The notes beneath the pieces are model-generated. The model was not told where the DNA came from. It was given only the letters and a program-made list of their open reading frames with translations, and did no database searches. Source: Naegleria gruberi (taxonomy: Eukaryota). Taken from it: a DNA stretch of 64,000 bases. Position 1 is the first letter of the stretch. Every line of letters starts with the position of its first letter. Both the position numbers and the translations under genes were made by a program. The stretch is from NCBI GenBank assembly GCA_000004985.1, contig GG738852.1; one strand, given 5' to 3'. Positions 52,249 through 64,000 of the stretch are shown piece by piece.

Positions 52249-52544
52249 TTTTTTTTGATTGGTAAAGCTTTGTTCATATCAAGTTCCGATCACAAGCCTG
52301 TCTCCAACCTTTAGAAATGCTGTCCAGAAAAACTATCAATGACTGCAAATAGCATTATGACAAACTCTCTGGTTGACTTATTATCAGCTTTTGGAGATTA
52401 GGTTGTTATTGATATAATTCATTCTTAAGTGGAGACGTGTAGATCTCTGGAGGTTGATATAAATTCGTCGATCCGCTGGACCAGAAGAAAATTTGCAAGT
52501 TGAGTGTCACCCGTATAAAATTTTTGATGGTCAGTTTGTGAAAA

Positions 52545-52680
52545 CTCAATATCAAGCTGTCTTGTCCTTGTATGCTTCTAGTTGAACTACTGGTGTTGTT
52601 TTGGACTCTGGTGATGGTGCCTGCCACTGTTCCAATTTATGAAGGTTATGCTTTGCCACACTCTTCATCCAAACATTCAT
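52545..52680 (+). pseudogene. Actin pseudogene fragment (about residues 135-175 of actin).
   Basis: caagctgtcttgtccttgtatgcttct (QAVLSLYAS), an in-frame TGA where actin has GR, then TTGVVLDSGDG. A 2-nt shortening relative to actin precedes ...PIYEGYALPH. There is no flanking actin sequence. Confidence 0.55.
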
Positions 52681-53679
52681 CATCATCCTCAAAATGACCA
52701 TTATCAACAGTTATGGATGGATCAACAACAGTAAGATCTCCACACTTTATCATCTTCATCAACATTGATTGCAGCATTGTTAAATACAATTCCGACACTT
52801 ATTGGTAGTTGCCAGCTGGCAGGTTGGGACAAGTGGCCTTAATAGATTTAAGAGTGTTGTCAGGTCCCGCCAATTCCCTTTGTAAAATCAAAGGCTATTT
52901 TTACCTTAAAAAAATGGCATACTTCTTTGTATTCGAGGAGGTATCGTACAAGGAAATCATTGCGTAACAGGTTGCTCAACTTTAGTATTGGTAAATCGAT
53001 GTAGTAGTTTTGAACTAATATGAATTGGATGAATCGACTAGTACGTATTTATTTAAGGCTGTGATATTCCGATCATCATCATCATTATTATAGTTGATCA
53101 ACAGGACGATTCATCATCATCAACAACAAAAACAAGAACAGCTTCCGAATCAGATCAAACCACAGAGGGTAGGAAGTTCCAACTCTGCTATCAAAGGTCC
53201 TGGTGTTTTTTGCTTGCTAACTTTGATGACACGTTTGTACCCTCATTGTTGCACAAATACCACTCTCAATTGCTTAAATGTTAGTATCATGATTAATTAA
53301 TTATTAAGACTTGTTCTCTTTTCAGAAATACATCTCTTCAATAATAACACACTGTAAGTAGTAAATGAGAATATCATCATGACTAATATATCAGAATTTA
53401 AACGATCTATTTTAATTGGTAAAGTGTAGATTTATTTCAATCTGAATGAAGGTTTTCTTGAACAATTTCCTAATAACAATAATATAACAATAACAGTAAA
53501 GTGACCATGATAAAGGAGTGGAACTCTTTTGTAAGTATAATATCACTCAACATTTAATAATCAAAGAGGTCGCAGGAGTTTAAGTATTTCAGATTATGTA
53601 ACAATGTAATGAATTGATTCATTTAAGGTAGGTTTATCATTATCAAGAAAATTGGGTTTGGTTAGGATTCAGGTTTGTG

Positions 53680-53860
53680 GGTTTGGATCCCATGTCAACC
53701 CCTATTTATTAAGCTTTTCTCCTTAAATACATTAACAATATATATCATAAATGATGTCAAAAGATGGTGATTGTAATGGGGCACAATATTCGGCTGATGT
53801 GAAATTGTTAAATATTTATATATATCAAGTTATGATGGTGGCTAGTGGCAATAAAATCAC
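53680..53860. repeat. Subtelomeric repeat element Y, copy 1.
   Basis: ggatcccatgtcaacccctatttattaagcttttctccttaaatacattaacaatatata... is about 85-90% identical to 55632-55830. Confidence 0.8.
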
Positions 53861-53974
53861 TTGATCAAAATTATTTTTGCCGGTTGATCAAACCGAAAAA
53901 CGCGCGGAAAAGTTAAAAATAGATTCAAGTTGATGTGAAAATGGCTCAGAATCGAAAGGATTAACAAAGCTTAC

Positions 53975-54025
53975 TACTATATTGGAAGTGAATGTGCCAT
54001 TTGGCACTCACTTCCATCAACTTTA
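53975..54025. repeat. Imperfect palindrome ggaagtgaatGTGCCAtttGGCACtcacttcc (junction element, copy 1).
   Basis: Inverted repeat GTGCCA/TGGCAC flanked by GGAAGTG / CACTTCC. Same motif as at 55890-55965. Confidence 0.6.
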
Positions 54026-60500: not shown

Positions 60501-62998
60501 NNNNNNNNNNNNNNNNNNNNNNNNNNNNNNNNNNNNNNNNNNNNNNNNNNNNNNNNNNNNNNNNNNNNNNNNNNNNNNNNNNNNNNNNNNNNNNNNNNNN
60601 NNNNNNNNNNNNNNNNNNNNNNNNNNNNNNNNNNNNNNNNNNNNNNNNNNNNNNNNNNNNNNNNNNNNNNNNNNNNNNNNNNNNNNNNNNNNNNNNNNNN
60701 NNNNNNNNNNNNNNNNNNNNNNNNNNNNNNNNNNNNNNNNNNNNNNNNNNNNNNNNNNNNNNNNNNNNNNNNNNNNNNNNNNNNNNNNNNNNNNNNNNNN
60801 NNNNNNNNNNNNNNNNNNNNNNNNNNNNNNNNNNNNNNNNNNNNNNNNNNNNNNNNNNNNNNNNNNNNNNNNNNNNNNNNNNNNNNNNNNNNNNNNNNNN
60901 NNNNNNNNNNNNNNNNNNNNNNNNNNNNNNNNNNNNNNNNNNNNNNNNNNNNNNNNNNNNNNNNNNNNNNNNNNNNNNNNNNNNNNNNNNNNNNNNNNNN
61001 NNNNNNNNNNNNNNNNNNNNNNNNNNNNNNNNNNNNNNNNNNNNNNNNNNNNNNNNNNNNNNNNNNNNNNNNNNNNNNNNNNNNNNNNNNNNNNNNNNNN
61101 NNNNNNNNNNNNNNNNNNNNNNNNNNNNNNNNNNNNNNNNNNNNNNNNNNNNNNNNNNNNNNNNNNNNNNNNNNNNNNNNNNNNNNNNNNNNNNNNNNNN
61201 NNNNNNNNNNNNNNNNNNNNNNNNNNNNNNNNNNNNNNNNNNNNNNNNNNNNNNNNNNNNNNNNNNNNNNNNNNNNNNNNNNNNNNNNNNNNNNNNNNNN
61301 NNNNNNNNNNNNNNNNNNNNNNNNNNNNNNNNNNNNNNNNNNNNNNNNNNNNNNNNNNNNNNNNNNNNNNNNNNNNNNNNNNNNNNNNNNNNNNNNNNNN
61401 NNNNNNNNNNNNNNNNNNNNNNNNNNNNNNNNNNNNNNNNNNNNNNNNNNNNNNNNNNNNNNNNNNNNNNNNNNNNNNNNNNNNNNNNNNNNNNNNNNNN
61501 NNNNNNNNNNNNNNNNNNNNNNNNNNNNNNNNNNNNNNNNNNNNNNNNNNNNNNNNNNNNNNNNNNNNNNNNNNNNNNNNNNNNNNNNNNNNNNNNNNNN
61601 NNNNNNNNNNNNNNNNNNNNNNNNNNNNNNNNNNNNNNNNNNNNNNNNNNNNNNNNNNNNNNNNNNNNNNNNNNNNNNNNNNNNNNNNNNNNNNNNNNNN
61701 NNNNNNNNNNNNNNNNNNNNNNNNNNNNNNNNNNNNNNNNNNNNNNNNNNNNNNNNNNNNNNNNNNNNNNNNNNNNNNNNNNNNNNNNNNNNNNNNNNNN
61801 NNNNNNNNNNNNNNNNNNNNNNNNNNNNNNNNNNNNNNNNNNNNNNNNNNNNNNNNNNNNNNNNNNNNNNNNNNNNNNNNNNNNNNNNNNNNNNNNNNNN
61901 NNNNNNNNNNNNNNNNNNNNNNNNNNNNNNNNNNNNNNNNNNNNNNNNNNNNNNNNNNNNNNNNNNNNNNNNNNNNNNNNNNNNNNNNNNNNNNNNNNNN
62001 NNNNNNNNNNNNNNNNNNNNNNNNNNNNNNNNNNNNNNNNNNNNNNNNNNNNNNNNNNNNNNNNNNNNNNNNNNNNNNNNNNNNNNNNNNNNNNNNNNNN
62101 NNNNNNNNNNNNNNNNNNNNNNNNNNNNNNNNNNNNNNNNNNNNNNNNNNNNNNNNNNNNNNNNNNNNNNNNNNNNNNNNNNNNNNNNNNNNNNNNNNNN
62201 NNNNNNNNNNNNNNNNNNNNNNNNNNNNNNNNNNNNNNNNNNNNNNNNNNNNNNNNNNNNNNNNNNNNNNNNNNNNNNNNNNNNNNNNNNNNNNNNNNNN
62301 NNNNNNNNNNNNNNNNNNNNNNNNNNNNNNNNNNNNNNNNNNNNNNNNNNNNNNNNNNNNNNNNNNNNNNNNNNNNNNNNNNNNNNNNNNNNNNNNNNNN
62401 NNNNNNNNNNNNNNNNNNNNNNNNNNNNNNNNNNNNNNNNNNNNNNNNNNNNNNNNNNNNNNNNNNNNNNNNNNNNNNNNNNNNNNNNNNNNNNNNNNNN
62501 NNNNNNNNNNNNNNNNNNNNNNNNNNNNNNNNNNNNNNNNNNNNNNNNNNNNNNNNNNNNNNNNNNNNNNNNNNNNNNNNNNNNNNNNNNNNNNNNNNNN
62601 NNNNNNNNNNNNNNNNNNNNNNNNNNNNNNNNNNNNNNNNNNNNNNNNNNNNNNNNNNNNNNNNNNNNNNNNNNNNNNNNNNNNNNNNNNNNNNNNNNNN
62701 NNNNNNNNNNNNNNNNNNNNNNNNNNNNNNNNNNNNNNNNNNNNNNNNNNNNNNNNNNNNNNNNNNNNNNNNNNNNNNNNNNNNNNNNNNNNNNNNNNNN
62801 NNNNNNNNNNNNNNNNNNNNNNNNNNNNNNNNNNNNNNNNNNNNNNNNNNNNNNNNNNNNNNNNNNNNNNNNNNNNNNNNNNNNNNNNNNNNNNNNNNNN
62901 NNNNNNNNNNNNNNNNNNNNNNNNNNNNNNNNNNNNNNNNNNNNNNNNNNNNNNNNNNNNNNNNNNNNNNNNNNNNNNNNNNNNNNNNNNNNNNNNNN
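57543..62998. other. Assembly gap (5456 N).
   Basis: Run of n. Confidence 1.
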
Positions 62999-63204
62999 GA
63001 TGAGAAACTCAAAAGTTATAGTTGACCTATTGTACCTCACAACTTCCCTTTTCACTTGATACTTTTATACCTACAGACATGAACTTTTGAAATTTTATAT
63101 GAAAGTGATTATGAATGTTGTTAACGATGATATAGACTATATAATCTCATTAAAGGATTTTGAAATTATCATTCTTCCTATAGTTGTATATTTGAAATTT
63201 TAAT

Positions 63205-63545
63205 CTGATATTATTTACAAAGTTAATATTTTATAAATTGAAAAACTAAATATACCACGTTGTTCTACTCATCATTTCCTATCGAATGATATAAAATTTA
63301 ATGATATTTGAATAAGTTTATAATTTTGGGCTAGGGTTTGAACGTTGGGTTTAGAAGAATTGGGTTTGGATTAGAGTTGTTTTGATTTGTTACTTCGGTG
63401 GCACCATGGTCTTTATGATCTAATATAGAGTCTTTAAGTGAATCTTGGGCTTTTGGAAAGGTTTTTCAGTAAAGTTTTAAAAAAAGTATATACTTTCTAT
63501 CTAGATATCGAGATTTGGTGTATTTGTTGTTTGCATTGTTATTTG
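63205..63545. repeat. Subtelomeric repeat element X, copy 2.
   Basis: See 55275-55620. Confidence 0.85.
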
Positions 63546-63683
63546 GAAAGTGGTAAAGATTTCGATATTCTTTGTTGGGTTTGGTTATCGTTTCGTACTC
63601 ATTGGATCTTCATTATTATTGAAATACATAATCAATGATATACATCATTAAATAGGTTACAATCTCAGCTATCCAGTGGGCTA

Positions 63684-64000
63684 GGTTGGGTTTGGGTTTG
63701 GGTTTGGGTTTGGGTTTGGGTTTGGGTTTGGGTTTGGGTTTGGGTTTGGGTTTGGGTTTGGGTTTGGGTTTGGGTTTGGGTTTGGGTTTGGGTTTGGGTT
63801 TGGGTTTGGGTTTGGGTTTGGGTTTGGGTTTGGGTTTGGGTTTGGGTTTGGGTTTGGGTTTGGGTTTGGGTTTGGGTTTGGGTTTGGGTTTGGGTTTGGG
63901 TTTGGGTTTGGGTTTGGGTTTGGGTTTGGGTTTGGGTTTGGGTTTGGGTTTGGGTTTGGGTTTGGGTTTGGGTTTGGGTTGGGTTTGGGTTTGGGTTTGC
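63684..64000 (+). repeat. Terminal telomere-like array (GGGTTT)n running to the end of the window, G-strand 5'->3' toward the end.
   Basis: About 50 perfect hexamer units. One 5-nt variant (gggtt) near 63975. Confidence 0.95.

What the first reader, a model, noticed from the sequence alone, without database searches (positions are those of the whole stretch)
52500..64000. Complex chromosome end: the X element (~340 bp) precedes both an internal and a terminal (GGGTTT)n array
The last about 11 kb holds repeat elements, junction palindromes, telomeric arrays and assembly gaps. The order is: Y copy 1, palindrome, a 1.1-kb gap, X copy 1, Y copy 2, palindrome, the internal (GGGTTT)~80 array, a 50-N gap, about 1 kb of unique AT-rich DNA, a 5.5-kb gap, X copy 2, then the terminal (GGGTTT)n array. 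Two readings fit this. One is a genuine tandem array of subtelomeric units, each ending in a telomeric tract, with interstitial telomeric repeats. The other is a scaffolding artefact that joins two different chromosome ends. The repeat unit T3G3 differs from the irregular A-G(1-8) ends of Dictyostelium discoideum, so it carries lineage information.
Basis: seen in the sequence. Interest (0 to 1): 0.6.

Follow-up and report, generated by a model that had tools for sequence, protein, structure and literature searches.

The report
Naegleria chromosome end with mis-scaffolded telomere
This is the gap-ridden end of a Naegleria gruberi genome scaffold, carrying that species' already reported TTTGGG telomere repeat and a patchwork of shared subtelomeric blocks. 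The 'internal' telomere array lies against an assembly gap and is more likely a scaffolding product than a true interstitial array.

Summary

The window is not from a dictyostelid. A 615-aa ORF is 100% identical to a Naegleria gruberi protein. TTTGGG was published as the candidate N. gruberi telomere in 2013, so the repeat type is not new.

The last 10 kb consists of four pieces. Three are contigs of about 1 kb separated by N-runs. They share short blocks pairwise (Y: B/C; X: C/E; Z: B/D).

The 'internal' array has 75 perfect units with variants only at its proximal edge. It points G-strand-outward and runs flush into a round 50-N gap. The next contig starts with no telomere unit, so no distal junction is sequenced. 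Interstitial telomere-like tracts that are actually sequenced through here are short (about 15-55 bp) and degenerate.

X-to-array distances (354 and 150 bp) and the intervening sequences differ, so there is no regular tandem unit.

Best reading (about 0.6): a real chromosome end with ordinary mosaic subtelomeric DNA, in which two alternative telomere-bearing ends were linearised by mate-pair scaffolding. A genuine long interstitial array (about 0.27) is not excluded. No other N. gruberi DNA could be reached to decide.

The parts
53650..53686 (+). Short degenerate interstitial telomere-like tract (TTGGGTTTGGTTAGGATTCAGGTTTGTGGGTTTGG) immediately before Y copy 1. Its first 23 nt are block Z, shared with contig D.
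   Evidence: (D2 reference copy)
53679..54025 (+). Y copy 1 plus its palindrome. Conserved core 53679-53838, diverged middle, palindrome 53983-54016.
54176..55274 (.). Assembly gap, 1099 N
55275..55615 (+). X copy 1. It starts at the contig edge, so it is possibly truncated. It contains a degenerate telomere-like tract at 55394-55447.
55631..55925 (+). Y copy 2 plus palindrome 2 (55885-55915)
55951..55967 (+). Third half-copy of the palindrome arm (TGGAAGTGGAAGTGCCA). It pairs with 55903-55919 and ends at 55967; only GG (55968-55969) separates it from the first telomere unit at 55970.
55970..56461 (+). 'Internal' (TTTGGG)82 array. There are three variant units at the proximal edge, then 75 perfect units, and one aberrant unit 27 bp before the contig end. 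It runs flush into the gap.
56462..56511 (.). Assembly gap, exactly 50 N (probably a placeholder; inference)
56512..57542 (+). Contig D: 1031 bp, 27.6% GC, no ORF with any database relative. It carries block Z' at 56867-56889. Its left edge has no telomere unit.
57543..62998 (.). Assembly gap, 5456 N
63205..63535 (+). X copy 2, preceded by 206 bp of other sequence (62999-63204). It contains a degenerate telomere-like tract at 63324-63370.
63536..63685 (+). 150 bp between X copy 2 and the terminal array. It is unrelated to Y or the palindrome and holds a short TTGGGTTTGG tract at 63575-63584.
63686..64000 (+). Terminal (TTTGGG)52 array: one variant unit at the proximal edge, 48 perfect units, irregular in the last 22 bases.

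Best explanation
The window is the right-hand end of a Sanger-era Naegleria gruberi NEG-M scaffold and reaches a real chromosome end. The arrays are the species' telomerase-type TTTGGG telomere. The 4 kb of sequenced DNA before them is ordinary subtelomeric mosaic: short blocks (X, Y+palindrome, Z) shared between ends, peppered with short degenerate telomere relics of the kind left by earlier end-healing or end-copying events.

The 492-bp 'internal' array is itself the proximal, read-length-limited part of a true terminal telomere, captured in a 1.2-kb contig (X1-Y2-palindromes-telomere). That contig and the pair D...E(X2-telomere) are alternative ends that both link by mate pairs to the same proximal sequence. 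They are either the two homologues of a heterozygous diploid, or two near-identical collapsed chromosome ends. The scaffolder laid them out one after the other, filling the non-positive distance between them with a 50-N placeholder.

Shown: organism, repeat, orientation, block homologies, gap adjacency, absence of a distal junction.
Inferred: telomerase origin, the mate-pair logic, the meaning of the 50-N gap.
For: - Organism: ORF 25378-27225 is 100% identical over 615 aa to NAEGRDRAFT_46822, on a 938,756-bp contig.
- TTTGGG is the published candidate telomere of N. gruberi (PMC3622300).
- Both arrays have the G-strand pointing to the window end.
- The internal array has variant units only at its proximal edge, then 75 perfect units, which is the architecture of a maintained telomere. 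Its one distal irregularity lies 27 bp from the contig end, like the irregularities at the end of the terminal array.
- The internal array ends flush at a gap of exactly 50 N, while the other gaps are 1099 and 5456 N.
- Contig D begins ATGTTGATATC... with no telomere unit, so no read-through from array into non-telomeric DNA exists anywhere in the window.
- Interstitial tracts that are sequenced through are short (about 15-55 bp) and degenerate.
- All gaps of the 64-kb window fall in the last 10 kb, and contigs C, D and E are 1187, 1031 and 1002 bp.
- The two 'units' are not equivalent. X-to-array spacing is 354 versus 150 bp with unrelated filling, and Z-to-X spacing is 1.6 versus 6.3 kb.
- N. 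gruberi is treated as a heterozygous diploid, and its relatives have 37 chromosomes, so there are many similar ends and two haplotypes to confuse (PMC9928731).
Against: - No read, mate-pair or second-assembly evidence could be reached, so the misplacement is inferred, not seen.
- Contig C was placed next to B by the assembler, which implies real mate links to this scaffold. A genuine B-C-D-E order would produce the same links.
- The meaning of a 50-N gap in this assembly is my inference; I found no documentation.
- Tandem subtelomeric units separated by telomere tracts do exist in other organisms (yeast Y').
- X1 and X2 are only 86% identical, more diverged than expected for simple alleles.
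Confidence: 0.6

Rival explanations
1. The internal array is a genuine long interstitial telomeric tract. On this reading the chromosome end is built from successive subtelomeric modules, each captured onto an existing telomere (for example by break-induced replication or telomere-telomere recombination), so a full-length telomere tract became internal. This would resemble tandem Y' elements of budding yeast.
For: - The assembler's order B-C-D-E is as given.
- All four pieces carry subtelomere-type blocks and telomere relics in one orientation, as expected if ends are repeatedly extended.
- X lies proximal to both arrays.
- Short internal telomere relics show that telomere sequence does become internal at this end.
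Against: - The distal junction is not sequenced. The array ends in a gap, and contig D starts without any repeat unit although the gap is nominally only 50 bp.
- 75 perfect units with no decay contrast with every sequenced-through internal tract here.
- The modules are not equivalent in content or spacing.
Confidence: 0.27
2. Contig C does not belong near this locus at all. It would be a chimeric clone, or a telomeric contig of an unrelated chromosome, pulled in only through the repeated Y block shared with contig B.
For: - C shares with B only the repeated Y+palindrome element, and with E only X.
- C has no unique sequence, apart from about 100 bp, that could anchor it.
Against: Scaffolders normally need several consistent mate pairs, and mates of reads in C should fall 2-40 kb proximal in unique DNA. 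For an unrelated chromosome they would not land in this scaffold unless the proximal region is also duplicated, which then merges with the best explanation.
Confidence: 0.08

Closest known systems
Candidate TTTGGG telomere of Naegleria gruberi (Fulneckova et al. 2013, Genome Biol Evol, PMC3622300)
   Same: Same organism, same hexamer, same kind of evidence: arrays at scaffold ends of the JGI assembly.
   Different: That survey reported only the repeat type, and noted that terminal position needs experimental proof. The adjacent blocks X, Y+palindrome and Z are not described there or in any paper I could find.
Saccharomyces cerevisiae X / Y' subtelomeres with internal TG1-3 tracts between tandem Y' elements (own knowledge)
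   Same: Repeated telomere-associated blocks shared between ends, and telomere-type sequence at block boundaries.
   Different: - Y' is a 5-7 kb element with a helicase ORF, and tandem copies are near-identical.
- Here the blocks are 0.3 kb and non-coding. No protein relative was found for any frame.
- The two 'units' differ, and the internal tract is not shown to be flanked on both sides.
Interstitial telomeric sequences at boundaries of subtelomeric duplication blocks (for example human subtelomeres; own knowledge)
   Same: Short, degenerate, uniformly oriented telomere-like tracts between shared blocks: 53650-53686, 55394-55447, 56867-56889, 63324-63370.
   Different: Those known tracts are short or degenerate, like the small tracts here. 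The 492-bp perfect array does not resemble them.
[quoted passage not shown]
   Same: The TTTGGG hexamer occurs as a telomere unit.
   Different: It is mixed with TTGGGG in Paramecium. Here it is pure TTTGGG over 75 and 48 units.

Membership tests
Telomerase-type terminal telomere array | Tandem array of a short T/G-rich unit | tested here: met
   (TTTGGG)82 and (TTTGGG)52, 98-99% matches
Telomerase-type terminal telomere array | [quoted passage not shown] | tested here: met
   Both arrays read TTTGGG on the + strand, towards the window end. All short relics have the same orientation: 7 forward and 0 reverse for GGGTTTGG, 7 forward and 1 reverse for TTGGGTTT.
Telomerase-type terminal telomere array | Physically terminal (end of the DNA molecule; BAL31-sensitive) | not testable with these tools
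   The second array reaches base 64000 with read-end-like irregularities. Whether this is the scaffold end or chromosome end cannot be checked here.
Telomerase-type terminal telomere array | Same repeat at the other chromosome ends of the genome | not testable with these tools
The literature reports TTTGGG as the candidate repeat from scaffold ends (PMC3622300).
Interstitial telomeric sequence (ITS) | Telomere-type repeats flanked on both sides by non-telomeric DNA in contiguous sequence | tested here: not met
   For the 55970-56461 array, the distal flank is a 50-N gap, and the following contig begins without a repeat unit. The feature is met only by the short degenerate tracts at 53650-53686, 55394-55447, 56867-56889, 63324-63370 and 63575-63584.
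Tandem subtelomeric units separated by telomere tracts (yeast Y'-like) | Successive units are copies of one element with the same junction to the telomere tract | tested here: not met
   X-to-array spacing is 354 bp (Y2 plus palindromes) versus 150 bp of unrelated DNA. There is no homology between 55616-55969 and 63536-63685. Unit lengths also differ.
Tandem subtelomeric units separated by telomere tracts (yeast Y'-like) | The element carries a conserved ORF (helicase in Y') | tested here: not met
   No ORF over 68 aa. A 1736-aa chimeric six-frame query found no protein with E <= 0.001 among 5.8 billion.
Scaffolding artefact (telomeric contig slotted inside a mate-pair scaffold) | The array ends at a gap, lies in a short contig, and no read-through junction is present | tested here: met
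   Contig C is 1187 bp. The array is flush with the 50-N gap. D and E are 1031 and 1002 bp.
Scaffolding artefact (telomeric contig slotted inside a mate-pair scaffold) | Reads or mate pairs show the two sides of the gap are not on one molecule | not testable with these tools

The most novel reading that the evidence does not exclude
The two arrays are the ends of two allelic versions of the same chromosome end. One homologue would have been broken at the hairpin-forming inverted repeat next to Y (GGCACTCACTTCCATCA...TGATGGAAGTGGAAGTGCC, 55903-55966) and healed by de novo telomere addition beginning three bases (AGG, 55967-55969) past the last paired base of the stem. This would give a heterozygous terminal truncation that the assembler linearised. 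It would be a natural example of palindrome-associated breakage and telomere healing in a heterolobosean.
Probability: 0.12. Interest if true: 0.5.

Novelty: new member of a known kind. Interest (0 to 1): 0.2.

Why it matters
It matters little beyond housekeeping. The analysis identifies the window as a Naegleria gruberi chromosome end and confirms that the published candidate TTTGGG repeat sits there in the expected orientation. It also gives a first description of the small non-coding blocks and telomere relics next to it.

The practical value is as a warning: the apparent interstitial array in the 2010 scaffold should not be cited as an interstitial telomere without read-level support.

If the array proved real, or if the two arrays proved to be allelic ends, it would offer a small natural case study of how chromosome ends are rebuilt in a deep-branching eukaryote whose telomere biology is otherwise uncharacterised.

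Tried and rejected
1. Fetching other N. gruberi DNA. Exact-protein look-ups for P0001, its paralogue P0002 and the terminal DUF4116 ORF were all 'not on record'.

2. Finding predicted proteins overlapping X, Y, D or E. I used a 1736-aa chimeric query made of all stop-to-stop ORFs of at least 28 aa in six frames. No hit reached E <= 0.001.

3. Exact-pattern scans. The Y core in metagenome contigs gave 0 hits. The X core in viral contigs gave 0 hits.

4. Scan for (TTTGGG)6 in metagenomes. It returned 120 loci. None shares DNA with X, Y, Z, D or E, and none shares protein similarity with the window's ORFs. The 22 loci with correctly oriented terminal arrays are mostly AT-rich, with unique sequence up to the array, and some mix TTGGGG with TTTGGG. 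They look ciliate-like, so they are not informative for Naegleria.

5. Idea that the 150 bp before the terminal array is a diverged copy of the 5' half of X, which would make X an old telomere junction. The local alignment scored z = 0.6-1.1 against shuffles, so I rejected it.

6. Rfam scan of 52000-64000 at E <= 0.1: nothing.

The actin fragment rests on blastn and blastx against the window's own actin ORF.

8. Literature. The 2010 genome paper is not held. I found no paper on Naegleria subtelomeres and no documentation of a 50-N minimum gap.
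Full report
**Observation**

I read 52001-58000 and 62941-64000 directly and listed the N-runs. They are 54176-55274 (1099 N), 56462-56511 (50 N) and 57543-62998 (5456 N). These are the only gaps in the 64-kb window. The sequenced tail therefore consists of four pieces:
- B: the distal part of the long contig, ending at 54175.
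- C: 55275-56461, 1187 bp.
- D: 56512-57542, 1031 bp.
- E: 62999-64000, 1002 bp.

Tandem Repeats Finder reports a 6-bp array of 82 copies at 55970-56461 (score 954) and one of 52.5 copies at 63686-63999 (score 621). Unit-by-unit parsing gives the following:
- Internal array: three variant units at its proximal edge (TTGGG, TTTGG, TTGGG), then 75 uninterrupted TTTGGG units, then one aberrant unit (TTCCGGG) 27 bp before the contig end.
- Terminal array: one proximal TTGGG, then 48 perfect units, with irregularities in its last 22 bases.
- Both arrays start with the same AGG-TTGGG-TTTGG.

Local blastn of each piece against the window gives these repeats:
- X: 55275-55615 versus 63205-63535, 86.2% over 341 columns, E = 2.7e-114.
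- Y: 53679-53838 versus 55631-55790, 90%, E = 3.6e-58.
- Palindrome region: 53983-54023 versus 55884-55923, 85%.
- A 23-nt block I call Z: 53650-53672 versus 56867-56889, 96%.

Alignment with flanks shows that Y and the palindrome are the two conserved ends of one element of about 300-345 bp with a diverged middle. The palindromes fold as DNA hairpins with z = -6.5 and -5.0 against shuffles. The arm GGCACTCACTTCC occurs exactly only at these two places.

Three qualifications apply.
1. X copy 1 begins at the very first base after a gap, so its left boundary is unknown.
2. X abuts neither array. The intervening 354 bp (Y2 plus palindromes) and 150 bp are unrelated to each other.
3. Downstream of palindrome 2 there is a third half-copy of the arm (55951-55967). 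It pairs with 55903-55919 in a 17-bp stem with a 2-nt bulge. The first telomere unit starts at 55970, three bases (AGG) after the last paired base of that stem at 55966.

**What organism, and is the repeat new?**

The ORF 25378-27225 is 100% identical over 615 aa to NAEGRDRAFT_46822 of Naegleria gruberi, on a contig of 938,756 bp. The next hit is an 85% paralogue from the same species. The window is therefore from the 2010 JGI assembly of N. gruberi NEG-M, a heterolobosean, not a social amoeba.

Fulneckova et al. 2013 (PMC3622300) searched scaffold ends of 143 genomes and named TTTGGG as the candidate telomeric repeat of N. gruberi. They noted that terminal position needs experimental confirmation, and that many assemblies also show internal blocks.

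I found no later paper on Naegleria telomeres or subtelomeres. TTTGGG hexamers are also part of Paramecium macronuclear telomeres. The repeat type is therefore already known, and on its own it is not lineage-diagnostic.

**Surroundings**

Coding ORFs with Pfam support run up to 52248. They include Rieske, RGS, VWA and two adjacent DUF4116 ORFs. Beyond that point I found only a frameshifted actin fragment (about 52553-52673), related to the actin-like ORF at 30904-31641. No ORF exceeds 73 aa in any sequenced stretch.

Short telomere-like 8-mers are concentrated here. Six of the seven non-array GGGTTTGG occurrences lie in the 4.3 kb of sequenced non-array DNA after 52249, against one in the preceding 52 kb. 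All seven are in G-strand orientation and none is reversed. These short (about 15-55 bp) degenerate tracts sit at or inside block boundaries:
- before Y1 (53650-53686);
- inside X1 and X2 (55394-55447, 63324-63370);
- in D (56867-56889);
- in E (63575-63584).

This is the usual signature of subtelomeric DNA that has been repeatedly healed or copied between ends (established knowledge from yeast and human subtelomeres; an inference here). No Rfam family matches.

**Is the internal array interstitial?**

The sequence gives five pointers, all in the same direction.
1. The array is never read through. It ends flush at a gap, and contig D starts ATGTTGATATC... with no telomere unit, although the gap is nominally only 50 bp. 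Had D abutted the array, reads covering D's left edge should have carried repeat units into the consensus, just as contig C carries 492 bp of them.
2. The gap is exactly 50 N while the others are 1099 and 5456 N. This suggests a placeholder for a non-positive distance estimate, meaning that C and D compete for the same coordinates. This is my inference; I could not document the assembler's convention.
3. The array has the anatomy of a maintained telomere, with variants only at the proximal edge followed by 75 perfect units. Every telomere-like tract that is demonstrably internal here is short and decayed.
4. Both arrays are about as long as a Sanger read anchored in unique DNA can reach (492 and 315 bp), and both end with read-end-like errors.
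5. The supposed tandem units are not equivalent. Z-to-X spacing is 1.6 versus 6.3 kb, X-to-array spacing is 354 versus 150 bp, and the junction sequences differ.

One point cuts the other way. The assembler did place C next to B, and mates of reads in C should fall in unique DNA 2-40 kb proximal. C therefore probably is linked to this scaffold.

The reading that reconciles both lines is that C and D...E are alternative distal continuations of the same proximal sequence. They would be either the two homologues of a heterozygous diploid, or two near-identical chromosome ends collapsed in the assembly. N. gruberi is treated as a heterozygous diploid, and its relatives have 37 chromosomes (PMC9928731). 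On this reading the scaffolder linearised the two alternatives. I give it about 0.6. A genuine long interstitial array gets about 0.27, and an unrelated or chimeric contig about 0.08.

**Mechanism, shown versus inferred**

Shown:
- a TTTGGG array in end-pointing orientation at the end of the window;
- a second such array in a short contig bounded by gaps;
- pairwise sharing of non-coding blocks between the four pieces (Y: B/C; X: C/E; Z: B/D);
- oriented degenerate telomere relics;
- hairpin-capable inverted repeats next to one array.

Inferred:
- the arrays are made by telomerase;
- the blocks spread between ends by recombination or break-induced replication;
- the relics mark earlier telomere positions.

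One observation stays unexplained. The internal array begins three bases after the end of an inverted-repeat stem. This could reflect breakage at a hairpin-prone site followed by healing, or it could be coincidence. It cannot be judged from a single junction.

**Attempts to bring in related sequence**

- The N. gruberi genome could not be reached. Three exact-protein look-ups returned nothing.
- A chimeric six-frame protein query covering B-distal, C, D and E found no predicted protein anywhere.
- Exact scans for the Y core (metagenomes) and the X core (viral contigs) found nothing.
- A scan for (TTTGGG)6 in metagenomes returned 120 loci. None shares DNA with X, Y, Z, D or E, and none shares protein similarity with the window's ORFs.
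- The 22 loci with correctly oriented terminal arrays are mostly AT-rich, with unique sequence right up to the array. Two mix TTGGGG with TTTGGG, which is more like ciliate macronuclear chromosomes. I did not test that identification.
- A long-read re-assembly of N. gruberi exists (PMC12695648). It is the obvious place to settle the question.

**Comparison with known systems and verdict**

- As a telomere, the terminal array meets the sequence-level criteria (unit, tandem structure, orientation). Physical terminality and genome-wide recurrence could not be tested here.
- As an interstitial telomeric sequence, the long array fails the defining test of being flanked on both sides in contiguous sequence. 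Only the short tracts pass.
- As a yeast-like X/Y' organisation, it fails on unit equivalence and on coding content. The names are labels only.

The finding is therefore an ordinary chromosome end of a species whose telomere repeat is already published. It has previously undescribed but unremarkable subtelomeric blocks and a probable scaffolding artefact.

Interest is 0.2.

The most novel reading not excluded is that the two arrays are allelic ends, one created by breakage at the palindrome and telomere healing. I give that a probability of about 0.12 and an interest of about 0.5 if true.

Noticed in passing
window 52553-52673 (+): Frameshifted actin pseudogene fragment (TVPIYEGYALPH...) just distal to the last gene. 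It is 69% identical at DNA level to the actin-like ORF at 30904-31641 of the same window.
   Followed up: partly
window 49961-52248 (-): The last two ORFs before the subtelomeric DNA are adjacent DUF4116-repeat proteins (372 and 388 aa), separated only by a stop. They may be one gene split by a stop or intron, or a tandem pair.
   Followed up: no
window 25378-27225 (+): This F-box ORF has an 85% identical paralogue on a different N. gruberi scaffold of 461,873 bp (P0002). That could indicate a segmental duplication of this chromosome-end region. Its neighbourhood could not be fetched.
   Followed up: partly
window 53650-53672 and 56867-56889: Block Z: the same degenerate telomere relic with the same variant pattern (GGGTTTGGTTAGGATTCAG) occurs in contigs B and D with unrelated flanks.
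   Followed up: partly
window 55903-55969: The internal array starts three bases (AGG) after a 17-bp inverted-repeat stem with a 2-nt bulge, formed by the right palindrome arm and a third half-copy. Both arrays begin with the identical AGG-TTGGG-TTTGG. The significance is unknown.
   Followed up: partly
window 38373-38493 and 33714-33862: A 12-bp unit (ATTATAGACCAT) is repeated 10 times at 89% identity. A GAA/GAC-rich (acidic-coding) repeat of about 150 bp lies inside the gene-rich part of the window.
   Followed up: no
loci L006-L119 (metagenome contigs; e.g. L077 568-2337 vs L101 1231-3000): - 22 of 120 environmental contigs carrying (TTTGGG)6 end in a correctly oriented array.
- Most are AT-rich (GC 0.22-0.41), with unique sequence up to the array.
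- L081 and L082 mix TTGGGG with TTTGGG.
- L077, L101 and L119 share 77-92% identical subterminal DNA.
- They are probably ciliate macronuclear chromosome ends rather than Naegleria relatives; this was not tested.
   Followed up: partly
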